From an uncultured bacterium (GTDB taxonomy: Bacteria > Hydrothermota > Tepidihabitantia > SM23-42 > CAYGYG01): 64,000 nucleotides of DNA. Every line of letters starts with the position of its first letter. The first letter of the stretch is position 1. This document shows positions 1 through 38,998 of the stretch, piece after piece. The notes beneath the pieces are model-generated. The model was given only the letters and a program-made list of their open reading frames with translations, did not search any database and was not told the DNA's origin. Location of the stretch: the NCBI GenBank assembly GCA_964354155.1, contig CAYGYG010000007.1:49903-113902 (forward strand), given 5' to 3'. Position numbers and translations under genes: made by a program.

Positions 1-1900
1 GACCAATTTCCGAGGCGTGTGGAAAACGGTCAACGGCGGGGCTTCGGACTGGATTGCGTGCAACAATGGTCTGGCTACGTCAGCGCAAAGAATCGCCTAC
101 GGCAGTGTCCACCCCAATCAGCCCAACAACCTCTGCATTCTTGCTTCAGGGGTGGGTATCTTCAAGTCAACCGACGGCGGCGGCCTCTGGGTCTCAAAGA
201 ACGCCGGCAATCCGGATTCGACAAGGATCAGCTGTTTTGAAAGGCAGCCTCAAGACCCGAATGTGCTTTTTGCCGCGACCTCAAACGGATTCATATACCG
301 GAGCACTGACAACGCCGAGACCTGGACCTGCCTGAATACCGGCAACGCGCTGCCGGTCAACCTGCGCGCCATGATAATCGACCCGAGAGATGTCAACCTG
401 ATGTATGCCGGTGCCAACGGTCAGAATCAGTTCTGGAAGAGCACGAACGGCGGTGTCAACTGGGCGCTCAAGAACAACGGGATCGTCGGCTTCGGCGGAT
501 GGATTCACGGTCTGACCATTGACCCGACGAACTCGGCGGTGCTGTATCTGAACGGGTACTCAGGTGCAATAATGAAGAGCACGGACCGCGGTGAGAACTG
601 GTTCTTTGCCGGCACTGGCATAGGACAGGAGATCAATGCGATAAATATCGACTACACGAATCCCAGCACCATCTATGCGGCAGGGATAGGCTGGATCGGC
701 GGTTCCGGCGTCTGGAAGAGTACCGACAAGGGTCTGACCTGGGCCAGGCTGACCGGTGGCTTCCCAACCGACCGGCCTTATCCATCGATCCAGGCAATGG
801 CTATGGATCCCGCAGATCCTCACATCCTGTACGTCGGCGGGTGGCCGATGAGCGGATTTGCGCCCATCGGCGTATACAAGACAACGGACGGTGGTGCAAA
901 ATGGGATTCAACCAATACGGGTCTGGGCAGTAGGGAGATCAGGGCGCTGGCGATTGATCCATTGAATCCAAGTACGGTATATGCAGCCACGGCCGGTGGT
1001 TTGTTCAAGACGAAAGACGGCGGTGCAAAATGGGATTCGACCAAACTGCTTACCCCGCTGGTCAGGTCACTGGCCATTGATCCTAAGGATACCAATGTCG
1101 TGTACGCGGGATTATATGGGGTAGCCACAGTCAGCAAGAGCACGGACGGCGGCGAGACTTGGAACGGCACGCGCCTGGCCGACGGCGATAGTACGGTAGT
1201 ATGTATTGCCATCGCTAGGGCGAACTCGAATATCATATACGCTGGAACCGTAGGTGATAATGCCGGCGTCTACGTTTACAAATCAACTGACGCAGGGCAA
1301 GCATGGCAAAAGAAAAGCAGTGGTCTGCCAAAGCTGCAGGATCCTGACAGCATGCGTTGGCATAGACCCAAAGGCCTGAATACTCTGGCCATCGATCCCT
1401 TCAATCCCAATGTTGTGTATGCAGGCGTTGCGCTTGAAGGCGGTATCTACAGAACTACTGATGGCGGTGAGAACTGGAGTGCGATGAACAGCGGCTATGA
1501 CGGGTTCCCGTTTACGGACAAACTGGTTATTGATCCTGCAGATCGGAAAACCTTGTATGCCGGGTCATATGCCGGGGTTTGGTCCTACACGGCCTTGACC
1601 ACGCCCGAGCCGGCCCCGGATACGAACCAGGCCGTGGCATTTCCCAACCCGGCCCGGGGCAATCGCGTGACCTTCGCCTACCATCTTGAGTTCAATGCCG
1701 AGGTGAGACTGAAAGTCTATGGCCTGTCCAAAGAGCTTGTCGCATCAGTAATCGAGCAAAAGACGGCCGGCGATTGCAGCACGGTGCTGGATATCACCGA
1801 CATTCGACCCGGAGTGTATTTCTTCCAGATCACGACCAAAAACGAGACCACGGATGAAATCGAGCATTGGAAGCGCCAGAGACTGGCGATAATCCGCTAA
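1..1900 (+). CDS. BNR/Asp-box repeat (sialidase/sortilin-like) secreted protein with T9SS C-terminal sorting domain; 5' partial (continues upstream of window)
   Basis: The 627-aa ORF has at least 10 'S/T-x-D-x-G-x-T/N-W' Asp-box motifs (KSTDGGGLW, RSTDNAETW, KSTNGGVNW, KTTDGGAKW and others). Its C-terminal ~80 aa match the conserved T9SS sorting-domain pattern (FPNPA...YDL.G..V...G.YF....T.). The reading frame stays open up to position 1, so the start lies upstream. Confidence 0.7.
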   Translation, partial: TNFRGVWKTVNGGASDWIACNNGLATSAQRIAYGSVHPNQPNNLCILASGVGIFKSTDGGGLWVSKNAGNPDSTRISCFERQPQDPNVLFAATSNGFIYRSTDNAETWTCLNTGNALPVNLRAMIIDPRDVNLMYAGANGQNQFWKSTNGGVNWALKNNGIVGFGGWIHGLTIDPTNSAVLYLNGYSGAIMKSTDRGENWFFAGTGIGQEINAINIDYTNPSTIYAAGIGWIGGSGVWKSTDKGLTWARLTGGFPTDRPYPSIQAMAMDPADPHILYVGGWPMSGFAPIGVYKTTDGGAKWDSTNTGLGSREIRALAIDPLNPSTVYAATAGGLFKTKDGGAKWDSTKLLTPLVRSLAIDPKDTNVVYAGLYGVATVSKSTDGGETWNGTRLADGDSTVVCIAIARANSNIIYAGTVGDNAGVYVYKSTDAGQAWQKKSSGLPKLQDPDSMRWHRPKGLNTLAIDPFNPNVVYAGVALEGGIYRTTDGGENWSAMNSGYDGFPFTDKLVIDPADRKTLYAGSYAGVWSYTALTTPEPAPDTNQAVAFPNPARGNRVTFAYHLEFNAEVRLKVYGLSKELVASVIEQKTAGDCSTVLDITDIRPGVYFFQITTKNETTDEIEHWKRQRLAIIR

Positions 1901-1912
1901 GGGAGGATTGAG

Positions 1913-2797
1913 ATGAAAACGATCATTGCCTTATTCCTGCTGATACCGGCGGTGGCACTTGCTGACCAGAGCGGCATGGAGTTCCTCAAGATCGGGGTCG
2001 GGGCAAGACCGATGGCTATGGGCGGTGCCTATGTTGGGTTTGCCGAAGGTGCCGAAGCCGGTTACTGGAACCCGGCCGGCCTGACCCAGATCGAGCACAT
2101 CGAGTTGTCCGCGACGCATCTTCAGTGGTCGACCGACGTGATGTATGAATTCCTGACCTACGGGCAGAAGCTTCCTGGTATCGGTTCGGTCGGCGCCAGT
2201 CTGTTCTATCTTGACGTCGGCGAGATCGACGCCCGGGATGATTTCGGTCAGGTGCTGCCGGTGATTACCGCCTACGACGCCTGCGGTATGGTCTCCTTCG
2301 CGCGGGCGATAAACCCGATGCTGAGTGCGGGCCTGAGTGTGAAGGGATTCCAGGAGAAGATCGGCGACGATGCGACTTCGGGCTTTGCGGTCGACGTCGG
2401 CGGCCTTGTCCGCTTGGCCAAGGTCAGTGTCGGTTTCAACGTCCAGAACCTCGGTATGAAGATGAAGTTCGTGGATGAGGAATTCTCCTTGCCGATGACC
2501 GGGCGGTTGGGCGTGGCCTTTCGTCCGCTGCCAGCATTGGCCCTGGCTCTTGACGGCGACTATCAGATCGTCAACGAGCGAGGCGCGGTGCATTTTGGCG
2601 GCGAGTACTGGATCAAAGAGATGGTGGCGGTCCGGGCCGGCTATCAGTACAAGAACAAAGACGATGAACTGGGGCTTCTGAACGGCCTGGGTGCCGGCTT
2701 GGGCGTTAAGTACATGAAGTTCGGTGTCGACTACGGTTATGAGCCTTCGCCTGAGTTGGGCGATATCCATCGCATCTCTCTGAAAGTCAGTCTGTAG
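1913..2797 (+). CDS. PorV/PorQ-family-like outer-membrane beta-barrel protein (T9SS-associated), putative
   Basis: It has a signal peptide and the N-terminal motif 'FLKIGVGARPMAMGGAYVGFAEGAEAGYWNPAGL', which is typical of the PorV/PorQ family. The rest shows beta-barrel-like alternating hydrophobicity. A GGAGG ribosome-binding site lies 7 nt upstream of the ATG. Confidence 0.5.
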   Translation: MKTIIALFLLIPAVALADQSGMEFLKIGVGARPMAMGGAYVGFAEGAEAGYWNPAGLTQIEHIELSATHLQWSTDVMYEFLTYGQKLPGIGSVGASLFYLDVGEIDARDDFGQVLPVITAYDACGMVSFARAINPMLSAGLSVKGFQEKIGDDATSGFAVDVGGLVRLAKVSVGFNVQNLGMKMKFVDEEFSLPMTGRLGVAFRPLPALALALDGDYQIVNERGAVHFGGEYWIKEMVAVRAGYQYKNKDDELGLLNGLGAGLGVKYMKFGVDYGYEPSPELGDIHRISLKVSL

Positions 2798-2856
2798 AAA
2801 GAATATCGGGCCAGGGCTGTATGGCCCTGGCCCGAATGTTTAAGGAGGCACGAATC

Positions 2857-3891
2857 TTGAGAAAGACCTGGCTGGGTGTTCTGCTTCTGGCATCGGTGGT
2901 CTGGTGCGTGAACCTGGACAGCCTGTATCAATCGGCCCAGCCCGGCGAAGGCTATGATAGGCTGCTCACATTGGATTCGCTCCAGACATATGAAGGTGGA
3001 TTCACGGCTCTAGAAGGGAAGAAGTCCGGTATGAAGGGGTTTGGAGCGATCATAGACTTGAGCCGTGGTGCCGTGCATCAAATCGCTGCCAAAGGTAGTG
3101 GAACGGTTCTTGATATGGCGCGCTGCGTAATCATTAATGGCGCAGACGTTCTGGCGGCCTTGGATTACAGTGATAGCGTCTCGGGGAGGCTTGACCATTT
3201 GACACTGGTCGGGGGCTACAACGGCATACAGTTTTGGCACGGGGAAAGCCTTATTCTCAGAAACAGCATAGTTGTGAATAGTTCGAATTATGGCGTGGTG
3301 ACGCATGATAGTTGTCTCACTTGTTTCTTAATTTCTTACAACGACGTCTGGAGTAATCAAAGAGGTAACTACATGTGCTGGTTTGGCTCTTGTTGAGAGC
3401 CCTATTGGGGAGAGTTCTCCCCATCTCCAGGTACGGGCAATATTAGTACGGATCCGATATTCGTTGACGCAGCCAATGCCAACTATCGGCTTAAAGAAGG
3501 TTCTCCATGTGAAAATCGTGCCGATGACGGTTACAACATGGGGGCGTACCTTGGCGTTTGGAAAGAACCGCCTAAACCCGACACGATTGTGATGAGTCAG
3601 GTCAACCAGAATCGGCCGAATCCTTTCAATAACAACACGCTGATAACGTATCAGATTCTTTCCAGAAGAAGCTCGGCTAACGTTGCCCTCGTAGTCTACA
3701 ACAATCGCGGCCAACGGGTCCGAACTTTGGTCTCGGAAGTGAAGACCAATGGAACGTACTATACGTACTGGAATGGCAAAGACGAAAGTGGCCAACCGGT
3801 AAGCTCGGGTTTCTACTTCTGTTGCCTCCGGGTGGGAAGTGAATACGTGTCATCGATCAAAATGCTGTGGGTAGTGCCGGTAACAAGATAG
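2857..3891 (+). CDS. Right-handed beta-helix (pectate-lyase-fold) secreted protein with T9SS C-terminal domain; single in-frame TGA at 3394-3396 (candidate selenocysteine codon or nonsense mutation)
   Basis: A TTG start at 2857 lies 8 nt after an AAGGAGG ribosome-binding site and is followed by a signal peptide. ORFs 2821-3396 and 3538-3891 share frame 1. Translation across the TGA is continuous (...YMCWFGSC-U-EPYWGEFSPSPGTGNISTDPIFVDAANANYRLKEGSPCENRADDGYN...), a typical beta-helix C-terminus, and there is no start for the downstream part. The C-terminal domain matches the T9SS sorting-domain pattern. Confidence 0.5.
3407..3422 (+). promoter_or_regulatory. SECIS-like hairpin downstream of in-frame TGA (GGGGAG-AGTT-CTCCCC)
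   Basis: It has a perfect 6-bp GC-rich stem and a 4-nt G-containing loop. The loop lies 17-20 nt 3' of the TGA at 3394. Confidence 0.3.
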
Positions 3892-3900
3892 GAATGAGCG

Positions 3901-4923
3901 GTGAAGACGTATTCAATGCCTAGAATCTGGCTCATGGTTTCTGTTTCATGCTGCTTTCTCGGGGCGAGTCAGCGAGCCGGTGCGGGATTCCTCCTGATAT
4001 GGCCCGGCGCGCGATCCACGTCCATGGCCGGGGCTTTTTCAGCGATCGCTGATGATGCCACAGCTTGTTACTATAATCAGGCGGGCCTGGCTTTTATGAA
4101 CGGTATTAACGCTTCCCTGCAACACTGTAACTGGCTGCCGGGGCTGGACAAGGGAATGTATTATGAATATGCCGGCGTCACCAAGTCGTTCACTAAGGGA
4201 ACAGCGGGAATCGATATTATCTATTTAACGACTGGTGAAACCAGCGTAGTGGGCGGTGACGGCACTCCGCAGGGAACATGTAAGGCCTTTGATATGGCCG
4301 CGGGTGTAAACTACGGCTTGAAGTTGAACCCGCGTCTGGGCATCGGTGCTGGTTGGAAGTTCATTTATTCATATCTGGTTGCTCCCTGGGTCTGGACGGC
4401 CATTCCAGATCTGCAGATAAGAGGCGGGGGAGTAGGATTGTCTTTCGCTTTCGACCTGGGGATGCTTTACAAACCCTCTGATTTATTCTCGTTCTCGACG
4501 GCCTTGCAGAACATCGGACCGAATATCAAGTACTGTGAAACCTCTACGGCAGATCCTTTGCCCTATACTCTCCGATTGGGTTTCAAACTCCAGCCCATCG
4601 AAACCAAAGCGATCAAGGGCACCCTTACGGCGGATATTACTAAAGTACTGGCGGGAATGTTTGGCTACCCCGACAAGAGCTCGCGCGAGAAGCTGAACTA
4701 TGAATTCAAAGAGGCCTGGAAGAGTGTTGGCCTTGAACTCAGCTACTTCGGCTTTGCCTTCATACGAGGCGGCTATTTCTCTGACTACGAGGGGTGCAGG
4801 AACGGATTCACATACGGTGCTGGGATCAAAGTCAAGGGATTTTCCCTGGACGTTGGAATAGACCAGGACCTCTATGGATTCAGCACCACCAACCAGAAGT
4901 TTTCCCTGTCCTGCCTACTTTAG
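3901..4923 (+). CDS. PorV/PorQ-family-like outer-membrane beta-barrel protein (second paralog), putative
   Basis: It has a signal peptide and the same N-terminal motif as the 1913-2797 paralog (GARSTSMAGAFSAIADDATACYYNQAGLA). It ends in an aromatic/hydrophobic C-terminal beta-strand (FSLSCLL). Confidence 0.5.
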   Translation: MKTYSMPRIWLMVSVSCCFLGASQRAGAGFLLIWPGARSTSMAGAFSAIADDATACYYNQAGLAFMNGINASLQHCNWLPGLDKGMYYEYAGVTKSFTKGTAGIDIIYLTTGETSVVGGDGTPQGTCKAFDMAAGVNYGLKLNPRLGIGAGWKFIYSYLVAPWVWTAIPDLQIRGGGVGLSFAFDLGMLYKPSDLFSFSTALQNIGPNIKYCETSTADPLPYTLRLGFKLQPIETKAIKGTLTADITKVLAGMFGYPDKSSREKLNYEFKEAWKSVGLELSYFGFAFIRGGYFSDYEGCRNGFTYGAGIKVKGFSLDVGIDQDLYGFSTTNQKFSLSCLL

Positions 4924-5063: not shown

Positions 5064-5528
5064 ATGAAAAAAAGCGTCAAAGCCTATTTGTTGACACGCT
5101 TCAAGAACATCAAATGGGATGAGTATGGCCCAGATGTGGAGGCCGATCCACTAACTCATTGGCCGGACATAAAGGCCTGCGTGGAATCATCCTACTATCG
5201 CCATCCGGAGATACAACAGCATTGTCATACCGGCAGGAAGCCGGCGAAATTCGAGTGCACCGAGAGGTTTCTTAAGTCCTTAGAGAGATATTGCACAACA
5301 AAGAGCCTGAGATTGAGGCTGATTGATGCCTTGACTAAAAAGATATATGGAGTAGCGTGCAGTGGTTTGCGTGATGCACCAATCAAGGAAAGAAATGATC
5401 TTTGGCATTTCTACGTGTCTGCTTCGTGGCGGGTATTCTACCGCAAGAGCAATGATGGCCTGGTCTTTGAAGAATTCTGTCCGCATAAGAAGGTGCCGTA
5501 CTACCGGCGGCCCCGAGCGAGTCATTGA
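5064..5528 (+). CDS. RelE/ParE/HigB-superfamily toxin-like protein with N-terminal extension (putative)
   Basis: The C-terminal block 'LWHFYVSASWRVFYRKSNDGLVFEEFCPHKKV' resembles the RelE/ParE core (W..R..yRVIYR...DG.v.vL.igHRKdvY). It sits in a locally AT-rich stretch (about 4930-5760). Confidence 0.3.
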   Translation: MKKSVKAYLLTRFKNIKWDEYGPDVEADPLTHWPDIKACVESSYYRHPEIQQHCHTGRKPAKFECTERFLKSLERYCTTKSLRLRLIDALTKKIYGVACSGLRDAPIKERNDLWHFYVSASWRVFYRKSNDGLVFEEFCPHKKVPYYRRPRASH

Positions 5529-5938
5529 CTTCTCGGTCCTCGAATTCTGACCAGAAAGAAAGGCTCGACTTGACCGGACCTCGTATAGATGGAACGGGGA
5601 CGGATCTTCTTCTACCCTGGGCGTCAGCGCACTTACCTTACTGTCAGAGAGAAGATCTTTGCCGAAGCAACAGGGAAATGAAGACACGTCCCTGTCTTCA
5701 AGGGTCACTTGAATCTTTACAGGGGCACGGTTATGAATATAATACTGTATGATTCTTGATCGCGCAGAGCTCGAGAAGCACGAAAACGAATGGCGCAGGA
5801 AGAGTGCTCTCGATTTCAAGCGGAACCGGGCACTGTTTGAATCTATGTATCAAGAGGCACTCGTGCTTGGTGTCTTGCCGGATGACCACCCTTTGGAAGG
5901 CATAGAAGTTGACATCAGAATCGCCAGGATCCTGAACA

Positions 5939-6493: not shown

Positions 6494-6521
6494 ATCTGGC
6501 AGTATTGATCGAGGAGGTCTG

Positions 6522-6848: not shown

Positions 6849-6882
6849 GTTGCTTCAAACGGCAATATGCGGCCAGTCCTGA

Positions 6883-8181: not shown

Positions 8182-8341
8182 AGGCGAGCCGAATTATGCT
8201 CGCCAGGACATAAAAATCAAGAGAAATGAGCGCTGACCCCATTATTTCTCTTGACAATTGCCGAATTCCGAGCATCATTATTCTCAGTCTCAGATTCAGA
8301 GTAGCCGTGCGTGAACCGTAACAAACAAGTAAGGAGGTTTT

Positions 8342-9370
8342 ATGAAACGATTGAATGCTTTGGTCATATGTCTCGTGCTCGGACTGGGCCTGCTGAGTGG
8401 AGCTTTTGCTGCCCAGCGAGTGGTTTTGTGTGAAATGCTTTATGGAGAAGGTTGAGGAAGTTGCCCTGCAGCTAGTAGTCTACTAGCAACCCTGGCGATA
8501 AGATATCCGGGTCGGATTGCCCAGACTGAACTGCATTGCGCGTCCGGCTATCCACTTTACCGAGCCGAAGCCTATAATCGGGCGATGTGGTACGGTGCTC
8601 AATACTACAGCGATACCTACATGGACGGCACGTATGCCGGCCATTCGGGCAATTCCGCCAACTGGGAAAACTTGCTGGTCGCTCGTATGAATAGGCCTTC
8701 GCCGATGACGGCGACGATGTGGGGTACGTATAATCCGACCACTCGAAATGGCAGGATCTACTCCAAGTTCCGGAATGATTCGACCGGAACCATAGCGGGG
8801 AATATCTACTTCCTTATCATTCGGGACAGTGTTCGTTATTCATCCCCCAACGGTGACCTTTGGCATAACTACGTCGCGCACGACTACCTGCCAAGTGAAG
8901 TAGGTACTCCGGTAACGGTCCTTCCGGGCGATACCGTAACCCAGTACCGTGATTTTTCGATACCCGATTCATTCAATGTCAGCAAGTGCATGATCTATGC
9001 CTGGGTACAAAGAACCACGGGGACCAGGGAGACCTATCAATCTGGCATCAAGAATGTGACGAGTCTTCTTGAGGTTGCCGAGCAGTCGAGTCGGGTTCCG
9101 GATTTGGCCAAGATCGAGCTTGTCCCGAATCCCTGCAACGGAGAAACCAGCTTCCTGCTTGAGCTACCGGCGGGCGCGCCTTATGCCATTAAGCTCTTCG
9201 ATATGTCAGGAAGACAAATAAGGGTAATGGCAGGTCAAGCAAAAGGCGGCAAGGCAAGAATAACCTGGAATTGCAGAGATGACCGGGGCCGGTCGGTTAA
9301 CCCGGGAGTCTATTTCTATGCCCTGAACAGCAGTAGAATCAACGCTTCGGGTAAGATCATTGTAAGATAG
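8342..9370 (+). CDS. Secreted hypothetical protein with T9SS C-terminal domain; single in-frame TGA at 8453-8455 (candidate selenocysteine, U-G-S-C context)
   Basis: An AAGGAGG ribosome-binding site precedes an ATG at 8342, and a signal peptide (MKRLNALVICLVLGLGLLSGAFAAQ) follows. The TGA and the downstream ORF 8585-9370 are in the same frame. The read-through peptide (GEG-U-GSCPAASSLLATL...) is continuous, and the downstream part has no signal peptide or start of its own. A T9SS C-terminal domain is present (ELVPNPCNGETSFLLELP...GVYFYAL). Confidence 0.5.
8471..8487 (+). promoter_or_regulatory. SECIS-like hairpin downstream of in-frame TGA (GCTAGTA-GTC-TACTAGC)
   Basis: It has a perfect 7-bp stem and a G-containing 3-nt loop. 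The loop lies 23-25 nt 3' of the TGA at 8453. Confidence 0.3.
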
Positions 9371-10237: not shown

Positions 10238-10302
10238 CGAGGGTTGTCGTTGGGGATAAACCCCAACGCTACAGTCTCGTAGCGCCGGGGCTCGTCCCCG
10301 GC
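10234..10302. repeat. REP-like intergenic palindromic element (GTAGCG...[GTTGGGGATAAACCCCAAC]GCTACAG...GTAGCG[CCGGGGCTCGTCCCCGG])
   Basis: Two hairpin modules are bracketed by GTAGCG/CGCTAC arms. The element overlaps the TAG stop codon of the corrinoid-protein gene. A second copy lies at 24119-24177. Confidence 0.6.
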
Positions 10303-30573: not shown

Positions 30574-30794
30574 GAAAAACCTCCTGTTGCAGTAAGCCTA
30601 ATCAGTTTGGATTGCGACTTGAATCGATGCTGATATGATAACCAGAAAGGGGCCGGTGTCAACGCGAGATACGATTGGCCTTCTCGGTAATCGACAGAAA
30701 GGACTTGACATAGAGCACGCAGAGCATAGGATGTCCGTGCTGGGAATAGTCCTCAAGATGAGACCTTTGCTTTCTCTTGCCCGGCGAGGAATCG

Positions 30795-32183
30795 ATGATG
30801 CGTGTTGCTGTTCTGCTTGGCGCCGCGGTCTTGTTTGGTCTGGCACCGTGCGGCACCGGGTTACTATTCGGGCCGTTTGAGAGCAAGCCGTATCTCACGC
30901 CAACCGGCACGCCCTGGAGTTCGGTCAATATCGGCTGGAATACGGCGACGCTCGAGTCAACCAGGGTTGCCTATGGACTGACCTCGGCGCTGGGCGACAC
31001 GATCAGACTAGAGGGTGTGCGTAACTACCACCACGCAAGGATCACTGGATTGCTGCCTGACTGCGAATACTACTACCGCGTGCTGCCGGCCGGGAATCTG
31101 AACCGATTCAGGACTTTCCCGGCCCGATCGGACACCGGCGTATTTATCGTCGTGGGGGATACCCGTACGGATTCGGCTGCCCACCAGTCCGTGGTCAATG
31201 AAATTGCCGGGTACGACCACGATTTCATCATCAACTGCGGCGACCTGGTCGAGGACGGTAACCTTGACAGCCTCTGGCAGATGTTTTTCAGTATCGAAGA
31301 TACCTTGCTTGAGACAACGCACTTCCTGCCGGTACTAGGCAACCACGAAGCGCCCTATTGGCAATATGATACGCTCTTCAGCCTGCCGGACTCGGAAGAG
31401 TACTATTCAGTGGACTGCGGCAATATTCATGTCGTGGCGCTCAATACCGAGACCAACCTTGTCGGCCCGCAGCTGTCATGGCTGAGGCAGGATCTGGAAC
31501 GGAACCGAAATAATGACCGGACTGACTGGACGATTGTCGCCTTCCATCGTCCGCCCTACTCATCCGGCAGTCACGGCAGCCAGCTCGACGTGCGCGAGGC
31601 TTGGTGCCACCTTTTCGAGACTTACCAGGTTGACCTGGTTTTCGCCGGGCATGATCACGACTACGAGCGCACCGTACCGATCAACGGGGTCGTTTACGTT
31701 ATCTCGGGTGGGGGTGGAGCGCCGCTGCGCGGGGTCGGCACTAATCCGTGGACTGCCTATGCGGAGAGTACGTACCAGTTCTGTCAGGTCGAAATCAAGA
31801 ACCGTTATCTAAGAATGCGAGCCGTCAAACCCAACGGTACGGTGTTCGATTCATTGATCATCGACAAAGGCCGATTCGAACCCAAGGGGACGACGGGTCT
31901 GCCCAACCGCAGACTTAGCGTCATTCCCAACCCGATGCACGACCAGGTGGTGATCAGCTGTCAGCTCGACCAGCCCCGGCGACTCCGGCTCAGCATCGCC
32001 GACCACGCGGGTCGCGAAGTGACAATCCTCAAGGACACTGATGAACCGGCCGGACTCTACCTTCTGATCTGGGATGGTCGGGATCGGCGCGGAAAATCGG
32101 TCGGTGCTGGCGTCTACTTTGTGGTCGCGCAGGTGGGCGGCGAGGTATGGATGAATAAGATCACACGGGTGTCGGGCGATTGA
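30795..32183 (+). CDS. Purple-acid-phosphatase-like metallophosphoesterase with T9SS C-terminal domain
   Basis: The metallophosphoesterase motifs are present (GDTRTD; GDLVEDG; VLGNHE; AFHRPPY; GHDHDYER). The C-terminal domain matches the T9SS pattern (IPNPMHDQVVIS...GVYFVVAQ). Confidence 0.75.
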   Translation: MMRVAVLLGAAVLFGLAPCGTGLLFGPFESKPYLTPTGTPWSSVNIGWNTATLESTRVAYGLTSALGDTIRLEGVRNYHHARITGLLPDCEYYYRVLPAGNLNRFRTFPARSDTGVFIVVGDTRTDSAAHQSVVNEIAGYDHDFIINCGDLVEDGNLDSLWQMFFSIEDTLLETTHFLPVLGNHEAPYWQYDTLFSLPDSEEYYSVDCGNIHVVALNTETNLVGPQLSWLRQDLERNRNNDRTDWTIVAFHRPPYSSGSHGSQLDVREAWCHLFETYQVDLVFAGHDHDYERTVPINGVVYVISGGGGAPLRGVGTNPWTAYAESTYQFCQVEIKNRYLRMRAVKPNGTVFDSLIIDKGRFEPKGTTGLPNRRLSVIPNPMHDQVVISCQLDQPRRLRLSIADHAGREVTILKDTDEPAGLYLLIWDGRDRRGKSVGAGVYFVVAQVGGEVWMNKITRVSGD

Positions 32184-32253: not shown

Positions 32254-33936
32254 TCAGTGACTGACGACCATTTTTCTTGTTGCCACGCCCTGCTCAGTCT
32301 CAAGGCGGTAGAAATAGACGCCCGAAACGACCGGCTTGCCTGACGCATCTGTGCCATCCCAGTAAGCTGAGTGTCGGCCCGCCGCAAGTCTGCTCTCAAG
32401 AACCGTTGTCACCAGCTTGCCGGACAGGTCGAATACCCTGAGTGACGCGCGCGATGGCACTTCAAGCTGGAACGCAATCCTGGTTCCGGCCACAAGCGGG
32501 TTGGGCGTGTTCTGAGCCAGCACGAACCGGCTCTGCTCCCAGCGGCTGCCGCTTACCTGCTCTTCAATCCCGACGGCAGGCAGAGGCCGGCGCCCGGCCG
32601 CGATGTAGCTCCAGGTTGTCCGGCCATTGCGGTGGTCGGACCACTCGCAGTAGACATAGTTCGAGTCGGTGTCGATCTGCTGGTAATCGCCCTGCTGTGA
32701 GGAACTCGCCGCTGTATATGAAGGCGTGACATCGTTCACTCGTTCATTTGGACGCCAGGTTACGCCGCCGTCGGTCGAGTATGAATAGTAGGTGTCGCCA
32801 GAGTTGGTTGGATAGTAATTGCGGGAATCAAGCCAGAAGACGTGGGGCCGGTTGTAACGGTCAATGCTGATCCATGAGCAGTACTGGTCAGAATCAGTAT
32901 TGGTATCATCGTTAGCCCTTACCGGTGCGCCCCAGGTCGTGCCGCCATCGGTTGACGATATTACGCAGATGTCCCAGCCGGCGCCGCGCATACTGTTCTG
33001 AACCGTAACGTAGATCTTGCCGGTCGCATCGCAGGCCATGGATGGAAAACTATGATTGGCCCGCCAGCCGCTGAGATGGCTCGACGATGTCAGAGAGAGA
33101 ATCCGGGTCGCGGTACCCCAGGAAGCGCCGTTGTCCGTAGAGCGGTTGAACCAAATTTCGGTCGGGACCCACTGGCACGGCTGTCCCCAGACTGCATAGA
33201 CGTGGCCGTTGGTCGGATTGACCGCCGGGCACGAGCCTTGGCCGCCGGCGCTTGATATATTCTGGTCGCCGGTATTCCAGGTTCGACCCCAGTCCGAAGA
33301 GCGGCACATACGGATCCAGTTGGTGCCGCCCGTGAAGTCGCTGTAGGAGCAATAGAGATAGCGTCCCCAGGTCTTAAACATCGGTTTGTCCGTGAAAGTA
33401 CTGGTCCCGCGATCAACGCGAACCGTATCACTCCAGGTCAGCCCGTAATCGGACGAGAATCGGATGAAGAGATGATAACCTCCGCCCGATGGCTGGTTAA
33501 TGCCCAAATTGTAGCAGGAATCACGGCCATTGCCGTTGATGCAAACGTCGACCCAGAACCAGCCTTGATGGTCGTAGTAGGCGGTGTAGGTTTGACCAGA
33601 GTTCGTGCTGCGAGCCCAACGACATTGCCAGGCCGAGCCAGTGTTGTAGTTGTAGCCAAGAACGATGTATCCCGGTTGGGTGCCACCCTTGCGTACGACG
33701 AACAACGCTCCATCCGGAGGGTTGGAGTAATCCATGCTGTCCGCTAGTGCGTTGGCCAGCCACGGCGGGTCGGGATTGAGGAATCGCTGGGGAGGGTCGG
33801 TCGGTACCGAAACCGGGCCAGTTGGACTGTAATCGGGAATCGTCGGCATCGCTTGCTGGGCAAAAGCCCCGCCGACCCCACCGAAATAACCACCAAACAG
33901 TAGGCCTACAGAGAGCAGACACGCAAGCTTTCTCAT
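32254..33936 (-). CDS. BNR/Asp-box (sialidase-like) secreted protein with T9SS C-terminal domain
   Basis: The likely start is the internal ATG at 33936, which gives the signal peptide MRKLACLLSVGLLFGG and has an AAAAGGAG ribosome-binding site. Asp-box motifs are present (SDYGLTW, SDWGRTW, STDNGASW, STDGGTTW, STDGGVTW). The C-terminal domain matches the T9SS pattern (GVYFYRLETEQGVATRKMVVSH). Confidence 0.7.
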   Translation of the reverse strand: MRKLACLLSVGLLFGGYFGGVGGAFAQQAMPTIPDYSPTGPVSVPTDPPQRFLNPDPPWLANALADSMDYSNPPDGALFVVRKGGTQPGYIVLGYNYNTGSAWQCRWARSTNSGQTYTAYYDHQGWFWVDVCINGNGRDSCYNLGINQPSGGGYHLFIRFSSDYGLTWSDTVRVDRGTSTFTDKPMFKTWGRYLYCSYSDFTGGTNWIRMCRSSDWGRTWNTGDQNISSAGGQGSCPAVNPTNGHVYAVWGQPCQWVPTEIWFNRSTDNGASWGTATRILSLTSSSHLSGWRANHSFPSMACDATGKIYVTVQNSMRGAGWDICVISSTDGGTTWGAPVRANDDTNTDSDQYCSWISIDRYNRPHVFWLDSRNYYPTNSGDTYYSYSTDGGVTWRPNERVNDVTPSYTAASSSQQGDYQQIDTDSNYVYCEWSDHRNGRTTWSYIAAGRRPLPAVGIEEQVSGSRWEQSRFVLAQNTPNPLVAGTRIAFQLEVPSRASLRVFDLSGKLVTTVLESRLAAGRHSAYWDGTDASGKPVVSGVYFYRLETEQGVATRKMVVSH

Positions 33937-34187
33937 ATTACGCTCCTTTTGTTTGTCCTCAACTATGCAGATTCTCTCATCTTGTAAAGATGTTTGGACA
34001 AGATGCGTGACAGTTGGTTTAGTCAATAAGGGCGGTCTACGCGAGGCTTTGCTCAAGTCATCATATTCAATGAGTTTGGCCCAGGCGGAGAAATGATCGC
34101 CAATCGACAGATCGTACACCTGCTGTCTGCACCCGCACGATTTTGGCACCTTCATCGATCGTACATGGAATTCTTCTATTTGCCTAT

Positions 34188-34215
34188 TGACATGCGACGG
34201 CCGACGGTTATACTG
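34188..34215 (+). promoter_or_regulatory. Sigma70-like promoter (TTGACA-16-TATACT) followed by inverted repeat TTCGC-GAATT-GCGAA (34237-34251)
   Basis: It has consensus -35 and -10 elements. The palindrome lies about 20-35 nt downstream of the predicted transcription start, which is a candidate operator position. Confidence 0.45.
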
Positions 34216-34311
34216 GCGAGTTAACATTAGTTGGATTCGCGAATTGCGAAACAGGTGGCGGGCCCATAATGAGGCATGCGGCATCATGTGAAAACAACAA
34301 GGAGGTCTAAT

Positions 34312-36534
34312 TTGAAGACGAAGTGTCTGCTCCTTACTCTGCTTCTATTAGTGACAGCTGGGCTTGCCGACTGGGAAGCGGTCGGTCCGTACGGGGGATA
34401 CCTGCGCTCGGTCGTCGTGTCGCACACCAACGATAATATCGTCTACGCGGTATCGTACAACTACCCGGCGCAGTACGCACGATCGACCAACGGCGGAGCC
34501 ACCTGGACGACCATGGGCGGCATCCCGAGTAACGCCTACGCCACGGCGATCGACCCTACCGATCATAACAAGCTCTACACCGGCGGCGGCTCCTATTTCT
34601 ACCGTTCGACGAACGGCGGCACGACCTGGCTCAGCACCTACGCATCAAACACATATCCGTACGGGATGGTCGTGAATAGTTCGACGCCCACGACCGTGTA
34701 TGGGGCCGGCTACACCTACGACGGCACCAAGTGGCGCATGTCATTCTACAAGAGCAGCAACAGCGGCGCGAACTGGAGCACAACCTATCTGGCCGACAGT
34801 GCGAGTTACGCCTACTGCATCGGTCTTGACCGAACCAATCCCAGCAACATCTACGTCGGCGGCTACACCTACATGAACAGCACGTACTATCCCATGATCT
34901 ACAAATCAAGCAACGGCGGTACGAATTGGACCCAGCTGACCAATGGCATCCCAACGTCCGGGTACTACGTATATTCGGTGGCGGTGCATCCGACCAACTC
35001 GAACATCGTCTATCTCGGCATCTACACGGCAGGGATCTACCGGTCAACCGACGCCGGCGCCTCGTGGACCCAGGTTTCGACCCACTACTACAACTATGCC
35101 ATGGCCACGAGCATTGCCGACCCAAATGCTGCCTTGGTCACCGGCTACAATGACGCGTACAAGACGACGAACGCCGGTGCGACCTGGTTTGCCGACACGG
35201 TCGGGTTCAAGGGATTGAGTGCCTTCGGTCTGGCCATGAGCCAGACCAATGGACAGGTTGCCTATGTCGGTGACAACATGGGTGCTTTCAAGACGACCAA
35301 TGGCGGGACACGGTGGTTTTCGACCAACAACAATCTTAACCTCGGGGCGATCGCCAGTTTTGCGGTGGCACCTTCGTCACCGGCGACGATCTATACTTCG
35401 TTTGAGGAAGTTGGTGTGTTCAAAACGACCAACAGCGGCACGTCGTGGACTCAATTGCCGACCCCGGTGGCCTGTGGCAACATCTGTGAATTTGCCGTCC
35501 ACCGGACCAGCCCGCTTGTTGTCTACGGGTTGGAAGGCGCAGGCTGAGGCAACGCCGAGCTCTACAAGAGCACAGACGGCGGGGCCGTCTGGTCAAGTGC
35601 GCTAGATAGTTACTATGCCGATGGCGGTGCCTTAATAATCGATCCGAACAACAACTCGGTGTTGTACAGCGGTGGTGCGATTTACGACGGATCGACTTAT
35701 CTGATGGGCGTGTCGAAGTCGACCGATGCCGGTGTAACCTGGAGCCGCGATACGCTGACCACGGCCTACAGTGTCACCTACGCGCTGGCGGTCGATCGCA
35801 GTAATTCGAATGTCGTCTACGCCGGCGGCTATACCGGCCTGTACAAGAGTACCGACGCTGGCAATACTTGGTTTCAGTCCTCAATCGGGCTTACCGGACA
35901 GGTATACGACATTGCAGTCGCTTCAACTAAGGCCAATATCGTCTATGCCGGATCCAGTGCGGGTGTGTTCAAGTCGACCAATGCCGGTGCGTCCTGGACC
36001 AATACCGGGTGCACCGGGGTGAACGCAGTTCTCATCAATCCCAGTAACGAGAATGAGATATATGCCGCGACGTCGAGCGGTGTATTCAAGAGTACCACCG
36101 GAGGCGGCGGATGGACGGCGATGAACGCCGGCCTTCAAAGCCTGAACACGACATCGCTCGGGATCTACCCGGCGCAGTATCTTTACACGGGTACGGACGG
36201 TGCCGGCCTATATCGCTGGAGCTTCCTGCTCGGGACACAAGAACAGGAACCCAGCCAGGGCAGGACGGTCTTGGCGGCACAGCCCAATCCTTGCCGGGGC
36301 CGGACCCAGATCACGTACCAGCTGGTACGCACGGTCAAGGTCAATCTTGGGGTGTACGATGCGCAAGGCCGACTGGTTAGACAGCTGGCGTGCGGCGAGC
36401 AGCCCCAGGGCGTACATTCAGTGGCCTGGGATGGTCTTGATCGACGTGGCGACCGGGTCGCCAACGGCGTCTATTTCTGCAGACTGAAGGCGGATGGACT
36501 GAAGCAGATGCAGAAACTGGTGATCGTTGAGTAG
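34312..36534 (+). CDS. BNR/Asp-box repeat secreted protein with T9SS C-terminal domain; single in-frame TGA at 35545-35547 (candidate selenocysteine or nonsense)
   Basis: An AAGGAGG ribosome-binding site plus a TTG start at 34312 gives the signal peptide MKTKCLLLTLLLLVTAGLA. ORFs 34276-35547 and 35659-36534 are in the same frame. The repeat protein runs continuously across the TGA (...VVYGLEGAG-U-GNAELYKSTDGGAVWS...). The C-terminal domain matches the T9SS pattern (GVYFCRLKADGLKQMQKLVIVE). Confidence 0.5.
35573..35591 (+). promoter_or_regulatory. SECIS-like hairpin downstream of in-frame TGA (CAGACGGC-GGG-GCCGTCTG)
   Basis: It has a perfect 8-bp stem and a GGG loop. The loop lies 34-36 nt 3' of the TGA at 35545. 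Confidence 0.3.
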
Positions 36535-38050: not shown

Positions 38051-38998
38051 CTATTGGCCGAGATAGACGATTTTCCCGGTACGGGCGGCGGTGCCGGCTC
38101 GGGCTTGGAAAAAGTAGACGCCCGGTGTGACGCGGCGGCCGATGCTATTCGTGCCGTCCCAGTCGATGAGCGATGAGACAGCGTCAAAGGATTTGACCAG
38201 GCGGCCAGAAGCATCATGGATTTGCATTGAGAGTTTTCGGTCGGCAGCCCGGGGACCTAAGACAATGAACCTGGTTGTCTTACGGAACGGGTTAGGTGAT
38301 ACCAGAACCGACCACGAAGGGATCGGTGTTTCTTCGACCGAAGGATCCTGGACCCCAACGATACCACTGACTTTGTAGACCCAGCCGGTCCGGGAATTGG
38401 TGCTGAACCACAGAAAGCCGCCGCCGATCGCAAGGCCGGCGGAATTGGCGCGCTCGGTCGGATAGCTGTTGATGACGTTCATGTTGGCCGGATCGAGTTC
38501 ATAGATCGTCGTATTACCGCCTATCGCCCAGAGGTGGCCACCGTAGTATTCCAGGTCCTGAGGCCGCCAGCTGACATTGAACGTCGCCAGCACCTGGGTA
38601 GGGTCGTTGTAGCTCAGCCGATAGATCGCCTGTGCGTTCTGGTCTGAATGCCACAAGTCCTGACCATCATAGGCCATGCCGTAGGAATAGGATCCAGGCG
38701 ATGTCCAGGTGCCGACTGCGTTGCCGCTCGTGTCGATCTTATGGATTGCATTAGGATAGTAGCCGAGCCACAGATATGTACCATCATGGCCCAACCCATC
38801 CAGTCCGCCCGCGTACGATATCGTGGAAACAACCTGCATGTTGCTGGGGTCGATCTTGAATATTTGATCGACCGCATTCTCGCAAGCCCAAACATAACCG
38901 TTGCCAAAGGCGACTCCGTTGGCATAATCACCGACATCAACCGAGTCGACAATGGTGAAGTTAGCCGCAATCAGAACCAATGTACATAGTGCTGACAT
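38051..38998 (-). CDS. Secreted beta-propeller-like hypothetical protein with T9SS C-terminal domain
   Basis: It has repeated ~45-aa blades with conserved W/Y/G. The C-terminal domain matches the T9SS pattern (LVSPNPFRKTTRF...GVYFFQARAG...KIVYLGQ). Confidence 0.55.
   Translation of the reverse strand: MSALCTLVLIAANFTIVDSVDVGDYANGVAFGNGYVWACENAVDQIFKIDPSNMQVVSTISYAGGLDGLGHDGTYLWLGYYPNAIHKIDTSGNAVGTWTSPGSYSYGMAYDGQDLWHSDQNAQAIYRLSYNDPTQVLATFNVSWRPQDLEYYGGHLWAIGGNTTIYELDPANMNVINSYPTERANSAGLAIGGGFLWFSTNSRTGWVYKVSGIVGVQDPSVEETPIPSWSVLVSPNPFRKTTRFIVLGPRAADRKLSMQIHDASGRLVKSFDAVSSLIDWDGTNSIGRRVTPGVYFFQARAGTAARTGKIVYLGQ

What the first reader, a model, noticed from the sequence alone, without database searches (positions are those of the whole stretch)
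1..4923. Two PorV/PorQ-like beta-barrel paralogs interleaved with T9SS cargo genes; 11 C-terminal-domain cargo genes in 64 kb but no core T9SS machinery
Both 1913-2797 and 3901-4923 carry the PorV/PorQ-family N-terminal motif (GAR..aMgGAf.a.adda.a.yyNpAGL) and flank a cargo gene. PorV is the outer-membrane shuttle that binds C-terminal-domain cargo. Cargo-adjacent, apparently dedicated PorV-like paralogs would parallel the SprF/PorP-with-SprB arrangement in Bacteroidetes, but here with type-A sorting domains in a non-Bacteroidetes-like genome. The window has 11 genes with the T9SS domain (1-1900, 2857-3891, 8342-9370, 30795-32183, 32254-33936, 34312-36534, 38051-38998, 41894-43843, 44289-46049, 46112-47407, 60648-62315). 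No PorK/L/M/N, SprA or PorU homologues are present.
Basis: partly seen in the sequence, partly recalled or inferred. Interest (0 to 1): 0.5.

Follow-up and report, generated by a model that had tools for sequence, protein, structure and literature searches.

The report
PorV-like barrels in a selenium gene island
Two PorV-type outer-membrane barrels are really there: one is the lineage's ordinary PorV, while the other is always sandwiched between two secreted selenocysteine proteins in a selenium-uptake gene island, which suggests a dedicated surface anchor.

Summary
Both ORFs (1913-2797, 3901-4923) are PorV/PorQ-family proteins: NCBIfam NF033709 at 192-193 bits against a cutoff of 90. Their AlphaFold models are read as 14-stranded barrels and match PorV best. 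The window has 11 ORFs with T9SS type-A tails and no T9SS core gene.

- **Barrel 2** is the conserved PorV orthologue of candidate division WOR-3, with more than 100 homologues at 55-62% identity. In other WOR-3 genomes it sits in a PorV-epimerase-NusG locus, so it is not cargo-dedicated.
- **Barrel 1** is cargo-linked. In seven distinct orthologous arrangements (54-89% identity) it lies between the same two tail-bearing genes.

One is a BNR propeller (G-U-QG) and the other a beta-helix (C-U). The block sits beside a CU-motif TonB receptor selenoprotein and YedE. SelB, SelD and DUF3343 also lie nearby in most loci. Five of the 11 cargo genes encode selenocysteine.

Best reading: barrel 1 is a PorQ-like cognate anchor or shuttle for surface selenoproteins, in a module that may capture selenium. 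That function is inferred. Whether the genome has T9SS core genes is untested.

The parts
1..1900 (+). C-terminal 633 codons of a roughly 780-aa BNR/sortilin-type beta-propeller protein with a T9SS type-A tail. The full gene is a selenoprotein. Its TGA (motif HSNG-U-QGYSFRTTDGG) lies about 140 nt upstream of window position 1.
   Evidence: Pfam Sortilin-Vps10 98.7 bits and TIGR04183 31.8 bits. The same contig with 10 kb upstream is L001. The 99-aa ORF and the 652-aa ORF are in frame across one TGA in all 7 orthologous loci. A hairpin after the TGA is conserved with compensatory changes.
1913..2797 (+). Barrel 1: a 294-aa PorV/PorQ-family outer-membrane beta-barrel. It is restricted to this lineage and always lies between the two tail-bearing selenoprotein genes.
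   Evidence: NF033709 192.9 bits (cutoff 90). PorQ 95.9, PorV 80.9 and PorV2 75.9 are all below their cutoffs. AF2 pLDDT 88.8, read as 14 strands. Best PDB matches are PorV chains 8gl6_F and 6h3i_F at TMq 0.80 and 0.78, against at most 0.70 for FadL/TodX-family channels. A profile of its alignment hits PorV at E=3.7e-35. Synteny.
2806..2835 (+). GC-rich hairpin with a 12-bp stem, between barrel 1 and the beta-helix gene. An equivalent strong hairpin with a different sequence occupies this spacer in all 7 orthologous loci.
2857..3891 (+). Beta-helix (NosD-like) protein with a T9SS type-A / FlgD-Ig-like tail. It is a selenoprotein with motif CWFGSC-U-EPYWGEFSP. TGA at 3394-3396; SECIS-like hairpin at 3406-3423.
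   Evidence: The TGA and its flanking residues are conserved in all 7 orthologues. The hairpin GGGGAGA-GUUC-UCUCCCC is conserved even at third codon positions. FlgD_ig 35.7 bits and TIGR04183 23.1 bits. The family is tiny, and every N-terminal fragment in the database ends at the TGA.
3901..4923 (+). Barrel 2: a 340-aa PorV-like barrel, the orthologue of the PorV-like protein conserved across candidate division WOR-3. Here it has moved, or been copied, to a position behind the cassette.
   Evidence: NF033709 192.0 bits; PorV 112.7, PorQ 61.8. More than 100 homologues at 55-62% identity, all about 335 aa, many named WOR-3. Housekeeping context elsewhere. AF2 pLDDT 85.1, read as 14 strands, best matches PorV at TMq 0.76 and 0.73.
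8342..9370 (+). Omp28-related selenoprotein (U-G-S-C redox motif, TGA at 8453-8455) with a type-A tail.
   Evidence: NF045500 Omp28_seleno 24.4 bits (partial) and TIGR04183 31.9 bits. Hairpin after the TGA.
34276..36534 (+). Second BNR-propeller selenoprotein (EGAG-U-GNAELYKSTDGG, TGA at 35545-35547) with a type-A tail.
   Evidence: The 65 nt after the TGA fold with z=-2.8.
41894..43843 (+). Thioredoxin-fold selenoprotein (GGGW-U-PLC, TGA at 43256-43258) with choice-of-anchor-D-like N-terminal domains and a type-A tail.
   Evidence: ResA-like hit ending at the TGA; TIGR04183 40.7 bits. Hairpin.
30777..32183 (+). Tail-bearing cargo gene without Sec. The tail is weak by TIGR04183 (16 bits).
   Evidence: custom tail HMM 56.5 bits.
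32254..34287 (-). Type-A tail cargo gene.
   Evidence: TIGR04183 37.5 bits.
38051..38998 (-). Type-A tail cargo gene.
   Evidence: TIGR04183 25.6 bits.
44289..46049 (+). Type-A tail cargo gene.
   Evidence: TIGR04183 38.8 bits.
46112..47407 (-). Type-A tail cargo gene.
   Evidence: TIGR04183 25.8 bits.
60648..62315 (-). M6-family metalloprotease with a degenerate tail.
   Evidence: TIGR03296 194 bits and no TIGR04183 hit. Custom tail HMM 23 bits, E=3.5e-5.

Best explanation
The window opens inside a conserved outer-membrane and surface gene cassette of a WOR-3-type bacterium, and that cassette belongs to a selenium-utilisation island.

**Gene order on the source contig:** cysteine-desulfurase-like gene, DUF3343 Se/S carrier, BNR selenoprotein paralogue, YedE putative selenium transporter, TonB-dependent receptor with a Cys-Sec (CU) motif, BNR-propeller selenoprotein with a T9SS-type tail, barrel 1, beta-helix CU selenoprotein with a T9SS-type tail, barrel 2.

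**Barrel 2** is the lineage's general PorV. It would be the outer-membrane partner that takes tail-bearing cargo from a T9SS-type translocon. It has merely moved, or been copied, next to the cassette in this sub-lineage.

**Barrel 1** is a short-looped, PorQ-leaning member of the same family and is dedicated to the cassette. It most likely binds the uncleaved C-terminal domain of one or both flanking selenoproteins and holds them on the cell surface. This is how PorQ holds PorZ and PorV holds PorU.

**The surface Sec/Cys proteins** would then capture or reduce a selenium species and pass it to the CU-type TonB receptor. Transport would continue through YedE to SelD.

**Shown:** family membership and fold of both barrels; strict synteny of barrel 1 with the two cargo genes; Sec recoding of three cassette genes; the selenium-gene neighbourhood; the housekeeping context of barrel 2 elsewhere.

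**Inferred:** physical binding between barrel and tail, surface localisation, and the selenium-uptake role.
For: **Family and fold.** NF033709 scores 192-193 bits for both barrels. The AF2 models are confident, are read as 14 strands, and have PorV as best PDB match. Profiles of both alignments hit PorV in the PDB.

**Barrel 1 is cassette-specific.**
- There are 18 orthologue clusters at 54% identity or more, then a drop to 41% or below in other phyla.
- Seven distinct arrangements keep the order BNR-tail gene, barrel 1, beta-helix-tail gene.
- Beta-helix fragments occur on the same contigs as barrel 1 orthologues.

**Selenoproteins.**
- The TGA is conserved with conserved flanks in the TonB receptor, the BNR protein and the beta-helix protein.
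- SECIS-like hairpins start 11-20 nt after each TGA, most with G-initial apical loops. Third-position conservation and some compensatory pairs support them.

**Selenium context.**
- YedE matches TIGR04112 at 388 bits against a cutoff of 200. The receptor's best hit is NF049946 'TonB-dependent receptor, CU motif-type' at 501 bits.
- SelB, SelD (AIRS), PF11823, Aminotran_5 and TusA lie in the flanks of the orthologous loci.

**Barrel 2 is housekeeping.**

**Precedents.**
- A review proposes that cognate PorV-like barrels protect specific C-terminal domains, citing PorQ-PorZ (PMC10202324).
- Among distant relatives of barrel 1, tail-bearing ORFs are 6-fold denser within 3 kb of the barrel than in the far flanks. 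They usually lie directly upstream.
- Nine of 10 such tails pass TIGR04183, and five of them score highest against the PorZ model's C-terminal region.
Against: - No T9SS core gene was seen in the window or in any fetched WOR-3 locus, so secretion by a T9SS is assumed, not shown.
- Neither barrel reaches the PorV, PorQ or PorV2 equivalog cutoffs.
- Selenoprotein genes often cluster with sel genes for co-regulation alone. The selenium-uptake role therefore does not follow from position.
- Using selenoproteins to acquire selenium is circular, although feasible.
- The one distant non-Sec homologue of the beta-helix protein has Cys-Val, not Cys-Cys, at the CU site.
- Barrel 1 keeps the FadL-type NPA motif, so a channel role is not excluded.
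- The orthologue set is small (18 clusters) and comes from one narrow lineage. Conserved synteny could partly reflect shared ancestry.
Confidence: 0.5

Rival explanations
1. The cassette is a TonB-dependent uptake or surface redox system for something other than selenium, such as a metal, a metalloid, or a polysulfide or sulfur compound. Sec and Cys would act as ligands or redox centres. It sits near sel genes only because selenoprotein genes tend to cluster with the Sec machinery. Barrel 1 would still be the anchor for the two surface proteins.
For: [quoted passage not shown] CU motifs occur in metal-handling selenoproteins such as HgcA and MbdU (same table). The window also carries unrelated tail-bearing selenoproteins of thioredoxin and Omp28 type.
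Against: A YedE of the selenium-linked equivalog type (TIGR04112, 388 bits) is adjacent to, or a few genes from, the cassette in every locus recovered. SelD, SelB, DUF3343 and TusA lie within a few kb in most loci.
Confidence: 0.25
2. Barrel 1 is a FadL-like substrate channel, not a tail-binding partner. It would let a hydrophobic or volatile selenium compound cross the outer membrane. Candidates are elemental Se, dimethyl selenide or diselenide, or methylselenol. The conserved corrinoid methyltransferase genes next to the island would then process that compound.
For: - The fold is FadL-like, and N-P-A-G is invariant in the barrel 1 alignment.
- Weak Pfam Toluene_X hit, 22.3 bits.
- FadL/TodX-family channels match at TMq up to 0.70.
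- B12-binding, URO-D (MtaA-like) or other methyltransferase genes, RACo and HGD-D genes flank the island in the window, L005 and L009.
Against: - PorV is the better match by sequence: the profile gives E=3.7e-35 against 1e-3 for TodX.
- PorV is also the better match by structure: TMq 0.80 against at most 0.70.
- The Toluene_X score is below its cutoff of 29.7.
- Its invariant position between two tail-bearing proteins, and the same pairing in distant relatives, fit a tail partner better.
- Small methylated selenides cross membranes unaided (general knowledge).
Confidence: 0.12
3. Barrel 1 and the upstream propeller protein are simply this lineage's housekeeping PorQ and PorZ, and barrel 2 is PorV. 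That would make this an ordinary T9SS attachment-complex operon that happens to lie in the selenium island.
For: - PorZ is a double-propeller protein with a retained C-terminal domain that binds PorQ (PMC10202324).
- Barrel 1 scores higher on PorQ than on PorV.
- The BNR protein gives a weak PorZ hit of 36 bits.
Against: - Barrel 1 orthologues are confined to about 18 clusters, whereas barrel 2 has more than 100 across WOR-3. A housekeeping PorQ should be as widespread as PorV.
- PorQ scores 96 against a cutoff of 220, and PorZ 36 against 260.
- The BNR protein is a selenoprotein with at least two paralogues nearby.
- The PorZ hit lies mainly in a short propeller stretch.
Confidence: 0.08
4. 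The in-frame TGAs are pseudogene lesions or sequencing errors, and the cassette is decaying.
For: Gene callers split all these genes at the TGA.
Against: - The same TGA sits at the same codon in 7 independent assemblies at 54-89% identity, with strong amino-acid conservation on both sides.
- Conserved hairpins follow the TGA.
- The motifs are Cys-adjacent or redox-type: CU, UxxC, WUPLC.
- SelB and SelD are encoded next door.
Confidence: 0.02

Closest known systems
PorV (LptO) of the Bacteroidota type IX secretion system (structures 6H3I, 8GL6)
   Same: - Both barrels belong to the same HMM family, NF033709.
- Both share the FadL-like fold read as 14 strands and the N-terminal motif.
- PorV is the best PDB match by sequence and by structure.
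- Barrel 2 is, like PorV, a single conserved gene across its phylum.
   Different: - Neither barrel reaches the PorV equivalog score (81 and 113 against 250).
- Both are shorter than PorV: 294 and 340 aa against a 402-residue PDB chain.
- The host is WOR-3, where no T9SS core has been documented in the literature I could search.
- Association with SprA or PorU is untested.
PorQ-PorZ pair (cognate barrel holding an uncleaved C-terminal domain) and PorV-PorU
   Same: Barrel 1 scores highest on the PorQ model. It sits directly after a propeller protein with a C-terminal domain. Distant relatives of barrel 1 follow tail-bearing genes, and five of the ten tails tested score highest against the PorZ model's C-terminal region.
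   Different: Barrel 1 fails the PorQ cutoff (96 against 220). The partner is a BNR selenoprotein, not PorZ. A second tail-bearing selenoprotein follows the barrel. Distribution is lineage-restricted rather than housekeeping.
SprF/PorP with SprB (type-B C-terminal domain cargo and an adjacent dedicated barrel)
   Same: The genetic logic matches: a cargo gene with a dedicated outer-membrane barrel gene next to it.
   Different: The barrel family differs (PF11751 scores 13 bits against a cutoff of 22.3). The C-terminal domain type also differs: type A (TIGR04183) here rather than type B.
Selenoprotein TonB-dependent receptors (NCBIfam NF049944-NF049947; the FCYXU type was reported in PMC12013277)
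   Same: The receptor upstream of the window has a conserved Cys-Sec dipeptide. Its best hit is the CU-motif model (501 bits).
   Different: It scores below that model's cutoff of 700, although it was scored with Sec replaced by Cys. It carries an extra N-terminal CarboxypepD_reg domain. Here it is embedded with T9SS-tail selenoproteins and a PorV-family barrel, an association I found described nowhere.
Selenium-utilisation gene neighbourhoods (YedE, YedF/TusA, DUF3343, SelD) and multi-selenoprotein operons (SAO, Tso)
   Same: YedE (TIGR04112), DUF3343/PF11823, TusA, SelD and SelB cluster together. Several selenoprotein genes share one operon.
   Different: The known neighbourhoods are cytoplasmic or inner-membrane. 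This one adds an outer-membrane and surface tier: a TonB receptor, two secreted selenoproteins and a PorV-family barrel.
FadL/TodX/OmpP1 hydrophobic-compound channels
   Same: Same barrel superfamily, and the NPA-type motif is retained in barrel 1.
   Different: They are weaker matches than PorV on every measure. Pfam Toluene_X is below its cutoff.

Membership tests
PorV/PorQ family (NCBIfam NF033709) | HMM score at or above the curated cutoff of 90 bits | tested here: met
   192.9 bits (barrel 1) and 192.0 bits (barrel 2), near full-length.
PorV/PorQ family (NCBIfam NF033709) | 14-stranded FadL-like outer-membrane barrel with an N-terminal plug segment | tested here: met
   AF2 pLDDT 88.8 and 85.1. 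I counted 14 long strands from the DSSP listing, setting aside short strand elements, plus N-terminal helical segments. Top PDB matches are PorV chains.
PorV equivalog (NF033710) | Score at or above 250 bits | tested here: not met
   80.9 bits (barrel 1) and 112.7 bits (barrel 2).
PorV equivalog (NF033710) | Works with a SprA translocon and a PorU sortase encoded in the same genome | not testable with these tools
   No whole-genome access. No core gene appears in the window or in the fetched WOR-3 loci.
PorQ equivalog (NF033711) | Score at or above 220 bits | tested here: not met
   95.9 bits (barrel 1) and 61.8 bits (barrel 2).
PorQ equivalog (NF033711) | Partner protein PorZ with a retained C-terminal domain | tested here: inconclusive
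   The upstream BNR propeller has a type-A tail but scores only 36 bits on PorZ against a cutoff of 260.
PorP/SprF (PF11751) | Pfam score at or above 22.3 bits | tested here: not met
   13.1 bits for barrel 1 and no hit for barrel 2.
FadL/OmpP1/TodX (PF03349) | Pfam score at or above 29.7 bits | tested here: not met
   22.3 bits on 55 residues for barrel 1 and none for barrel 2. Structural TMq is at most 0.70 against 0.80 for PorV.
T9SS type-A sorting domain (TIGR04183) | Score at or above 23 bits at the C-terminus | tested here: met
   Nine of the 11 listed genes pass. Gene 30777-32183 scores 16, and 60648-62315 has no hit. Both are recovered by a lineage-specific tail HMM.
Bacterial selenoprotein (Sec decoding) | In-frame TGA conserved across orthologues with conserved flanking residues | tested here: met
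   TonB receptor in 3 loci; BNR and beta-helix proteins in 7 loci each.
Bacterial selenoprotein (Sec decoding) | SECIS hairpin shortly downstream of the UGA | tested here: met
   Hairpins start 11-20 nt after each of 6 TGAs, and most have G-initial apical loops. They are conserved and partly compensated. No Rfam family matched.
Bacterial selenoprotein (Sec decoding) | SelA, SelB, SelD and tRNA-Sec present in the genome | tested here: inconclusive
   SelB and SelD-like genes lie in the flanks of orthologous loci. The window has no tRNA gene. SelA and tRNA-Sec were not located.
TonB-dependent receptor, CU motif-type (NF049946) | Score at or above 700 bits, and a CU motif | tested here: inconclusive
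   It is the best hit but at 501.5 bits, scored with U replaced by C. The CU motif is present and conserved. The gene lies upstream of the window.
YedE putative selenium transporter (TIGR04112) | Score at or above 200 bits | tested here: met
   387.9 bits for L001:3919-4980.

The most novel reading that the evidence does not exclude
A dedicated PorQ-like barrel anchors two secreted selenocysteine proteins (a G-U-QG beta-propeller and a C-U beta-helix) on the cell surface. Together with a Cys-Sec TonB-dependent receptor and YedE, they would form the outer-membrane arm of a high-affinity selenium acquisition pathway. More broadly, 'type-A tail protein plus cognate PorV/PorQ-family barrel' may be an ancient, widespread surface-anchoring pair. 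It is present in WOR-3, Elusimicrobiota and Poribacteria, and may not require the Bacteroidota T9SS core.
Probability: 0.25. Interest if true: 0.8.

Novelty: new variant of a known kind. Interest (0 to 1): 0.6.

Why it matters
**Selenium uptake.** A 2022 review states that no high-affinity selenium transport system has been identified (PMC9312934). This cassette is a concrete candidate that spans the outer membrane: a receptor, two surface proteins, an anchor and YedE. It can be tested by selenium-dependent expression, 75Se uptake and binding assays.

**New selenoproteins.** The BNR-propeller G-U-QG protein and the beta-helix C-U protein hit no selenoprotein-specific NCBIfam model, so they look like undescribed selenoprotein families. 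Five of the window's 11 T9SS-tail proteins contain Sec. I found no paper linking selenoproteins with type IX secretion.

**T9SS biology.** The locus gives a clean natural example of a cognate PorV-family barrel for type-A C-terminal domains outside Bacteroidota. The same gene pairing turns up in phyla not known for T9SS. This bears on how C-terminal domains are retained rather than cleaved, and on how old the barrel-tail partnership is.

Tried and rejected
- **Metagenome-contig scan.** Only two short loci.
- **Cluster look-up of window proteins.** No organism names. The WOR-3 assignment rests on the named homologues of barrel 2.
- **Context of P0026, a 39% relative of barrel 1.** Uninformative.
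- **Rfam scans.** No SECIS or other family matched.
- **Literature searches for WOR-3 plus T9SS.** Nothing found. Haft & Tolstoy 2025 (PMC12013261) is not held, so I could not check whether the CU receptor neighbourhood is described there.
- **Possible fifth in-window selenoprotein at 21389-22786.** Rejected because the upstream in-frame stretch is Arg/Ser-rich and does not look coding.
- **FadL/OmpP1 and PorP/SprF assignments for the barrels.** Rejected on HMM cutoffs and structure ranking.
- **Recent tandem duplication of the two barrels.** Rejected at 25% identity.
- **Pseudogene reading of the TGAs.** Rejected on conservation.

Full report
**1. The observation**

- NCBIfam NF033709 'PorV/PorQ family protein' scores 192.9 and 192.0 bits against a cutoff of 90. 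Pfam PorV is just above its cutoff for both.
- Neither barrel reaches the narrower equivalog models. PorV scores 81 and 113 against 250. PorQ scores 96 and 62 against 220. PorV2 scores 76 and 37 against 325.
- The unrelated families named as refuters fail. Toluene_X/FadL scores 22.3 against 29.7 for barrel 1 only. PorP/SprF scores 13 against 22.3.
- AlphaFold2 models built on 63- and 55-sequence alignments are confident (pLDDT 88.8 and 85.1). From the DSSP listing I read each as 14 long strands after an N-terminal helical segment, setting aside short strand elements.
- In the PDB the two best matches for both models are PorV chains from the F. johnsoniae SprA-PorV complexes, 8gl6_F and 6h3i_F. 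TMq is 0.80 and 0.78 for barrel 1, and 0.76 and 0.73 for barrel 2. FadL/TodX-family channels follow at up to 0.70.
- Alignment profiles hit PorV at E=3.7e-35 and 3.8e-17.
- The barrels are only 25% identical to each other.

**2. The cargo count and the missing core**

- Nine of the eleven listed genes pass TIGR04183. Gene 30777-32183 scores 16, and the M6 protease at 60648-62315 has no NCBIfam tail hit.
- No T9SS core component appears among the roughly 50 window proteins scanned.
- The nearest thing to one is the OmpA-type protein at 26140-27741(-). Its best NCBIfam hit is PorE, at 72 bits against a cutoff of 600, through shared CarboxypepD_reg and OmpA domains.

**3.

Four of the eleven cargo genes are interrupted by a single in-frame TGA:
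- 2857-3891, motif CWFGSC-U-EPYW
- 8342-9370, motif EG-U-GSC, the known Omp28-related/GOS_C selenoprotein family
- 34276-36534, motif EGAG-U-GNAELYKSTDGG
- 41894-43843, motif GGGW-U-PLC, thioredoxin-like

The same contig with 10 kb of upstream sequence (L001) adds three more cases:
- The first gene of the window continues upstream through a TGA, with motif HSNG-U-QGYSFRTTDGG.
- A paralogous BNR gene also has a TGA, with motif AHG-U-NGFAFKTTDGG.
- A TonB-dependent receptor has one too, with motif VPNC-U-DRPIWASGGG.

Each TGA is followed within 11-20 nt by a 5-7 bp hairpin, and most of the apical loops begin with G. For the beta-helix and BNR genes the hairpins are conserved in seven orthologues, including at third codon positions. 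A few pairs change on both sides and stay paired. The pseudogene reading is therefore untenable.

**4. Barrel 1 belongs to a conserved cassette in a selenium island**

- Barrel 1 has 18 orthologue clusters at 54-89% identity. Identity then drops to 41% or less, in other phyla.
- Every context I could fetch shows the same order: BNR-Sec-tail gene, barrel 1, beta-helix-Sec-tail gene. The contexts are L001/window, L005/L006, L007/L008, L009, L095, L096 and L097.
- A YedE gene lies adjacent or a few genes away in every one.
- The CU-motif TonB receptor lies nearby in five of these arrangements. The other two contigs may not extend far enough to show it.
- Around the cassette lie SelB, SelD-like AIRS genes, the DUF3343/PF11823 Se/S carrier, a class-V aminotransferase and TusA.
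- YedE matches the selenium-linked equivalog TIGR04112 at 388 bits against a cutoff of 200.
- The receptor's best hit is NCBIfam 'TonB-dependent receptor, CU motif-type' at 501 bits. That is below the cutoff of 700, but it was scored with Sec replaced by Cys.
- The beta-helix family is tiny. It has 13 N-terminal fragments, all truncated at the TGA and on the same contigs as barrel 1 orthologues. One distant full-length homologue has Cys-Val at the CU site.
- A strong GC-rich hairpin occupies the spacer between barrel 1 and the beta-helix gene in all seven loci, with a different sequence each time (window 2806-2835).

**5. Barrel 2 is the lineage's ordinary PorV**

- Barrel 2 has more than 100 homologue clusters at 55-62% identity. 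All are about 335 aa, and many are named 'candidate division WOR-3'. NCBI now calls this phylum Caldifarciminota.
- In two complete WOR-3 genomes, a 94-kb contig and three shorter contigs, the orthologue is followed directly by an NAD-dependent epimerase. A NusG-like gene follows downstream wherever the contig reaches that far. There is no selenium cassette nearby.
- One of those contigs (L012) comes from the same metagenome as a cassette that lacks barrel 2 (L005).
- Only the window and its 83% relative L009 have barrel 2 behind the beta-helix gene.
- Barrel 2 was therefore relocated or copied into the cassette recently. I could not tell whether a second copy exists elsewhere in this genome.

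**6. A wider pattern**

- Eighty distant relatives of barrel 1 (33-40% identity) come from Poribacteria, Elusimicrobiota, Gemmatimonadota, Eisenbacteria and others.
- Among them, ORFs matching my tail HMM are six times denser within 3 kb of the barrel than in the outer flanks: 0.47 against 0.078 per 10 kb.
- Such ORFs occur in 17 loci and usually lie directly upstream on the same strand.
- My HMM was trained on WOR-3 tails, so 17 of 80 is probably an undercount.
- Nine of ten such tails pass TIGR04183. Five of them score highest against the C-terminal region of the PorZ model, at 56-65 bits.
- This fits the published suggestion that cognate PorV-like barrels, as with PorQ-PorZ, hold specific C-terminal domains and protect them from cleavage (PMC10202324).

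**7. Mechanism**

Shown: family and fold, synteny, Sec recoding and the selenium neighbourhood.

Inferred:
- Barrel 1 binds the C-terminal domain of one or both flanking selenoproteins and keeps them at the surface.
- Those proteins, with their Sec/Cys sites, work with the CU receptor and YedE, most simply in capturing a selenium species for SelD.
- In the BNR proteins the Sec sits about ten residues before an Asp-box.

Rivals:
- The cassette handles another substrate and merely clusters with sel genes (0.25).
- Barrel 1 is a FadL-like channel (0.12).
- It is an ordinary PorQ/PorZ operon (0.08).
- The TGAs mark pseudogenes (0.02).

**8. Comparison with what is known**

- TonB-receptor selenoproteins were first reported in 2025 (PMC12013277). 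NCBIfam holds four motif types, including CU.
- Multi-selenoprotein operons (SAO, Tso) and the YedE/YedF/DUF3343 neighbourhood are known (PMC13188914, PMC9312934).
- I found no paper connecting selenoproteins with type IX secretion, or WOR-3 with T9SS.
- The finding is therefore a new variant of known kinds: a PorV/PorQ-family barrel tied to surface selenoproteins in a selenium island.
- The T9SS core question stays open because I could not scan whole genomes.

Noticed in passing
window 3394-3396, 8453-8455, 35545-35547, 43256-43258; L001 6757-6759, 7949-7951: In-frame TGA codons occur in four window cargo genes and in two upstream genes. Each is followed by a short hairpin. Five of the 11 T9SS-tail genes of the window encode selenocysteine. 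The BNR G-U-QG/G-U-G proteins and the beta-helix C-U protein hit no selenoprotein-specific NCBIfam model.
   Followed up: yes
window 2806-2835 (and the equivalent spacer in L005, L007, L009, L095, L096, L097): A strong GC-rich stem-loop of 11-20 bp lies between barrel 1 and the beta-helix gene in every orthologous locus, with a different sequence each time. In L009 a U-run follows it. It could be an attenuator, a partial terminator or an mRNA-stabilising hairpin that sets the expression ratio within the operon.
   Followed up: partly
window 9584-16500; also L005 1-1200 and 16600-19450; L009 13269-17439: Corrinoid-dependent methyltransferase genes sit next to the selenium island in several orthologous loci. 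They include a B12-binding protein, two URO-D/MtaA-like genes, the RACo reductive activator and HGD-D/BcrAD-type genes. They may methylate or demethylate a selenium or sulfur compound.
   Followed up: no
window 26140-27741 (-): A 533-aa protein carries two CarboxypepD_reg domains and a C-terminal OmpA domain. Its best NCBIfam hit is the T9SS component PorE, at 72 bits against a cutoff of 600. It is the only T9SS-accessory-like gene in the window.
   Followed up: partly
L013, L035, L038, L039, L065, L082, L086 (Elusimicrobiota and unclassified), L020 (Poribacteria), L090, L014: Large proteins of 370-1870 aa with bona fide type-A tails lie immediately upstream of PorV/PorQ-family barrels, in phyla not known for T9SS. 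Five of the ten tails tested score highest against the PorZ model's C-terminal region.
   Followed up: partly
L011 5778-6623 (-) (complete WOR-3 genome CP070686.1): A second PorV/PorQ-family barrel of 282 aa, which carried no Pfam annotation, lies 3.4 kb upstream of the PorV orthologue. It scores 142 bits on the barrel 1 profile and may be the phylum's PorQ.
   Followed up: no
window 5064-9370 compared with L009 13008-13269: In the 83% relative, barrel 2 is followed directly by the corrinoid genes. The window has a 4.3-kb insertion there. It holds a DUF6036/AbiEii-type nucleotidyltransferase (5939-6493) with small upstream ORFs, a PAS-GGDEF cyclase (6883-8181, -) and the Omp28-type selenoprotein.
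   Followed up: no
window 20263-25649: A cluster of oxidative-stress genes: an MsrA-MsrB fusion (-), MscL, a rubrerythrin-like protein and an AhpC/TSA-rubrerythrin fusion.
   Followed up: no
L005 3455-4644 (-); L007 3900-4871 and 16208-17182: Two SelD-like (AIRS/AIRS_C) genes occur per island in some loci. In L005 a 44-aa ORF lies just upstream of one of them, as expected if that SelD is itself a selenoprotein split at its N-terminal Sec. The reading frame was not checked.
   Followed up: no
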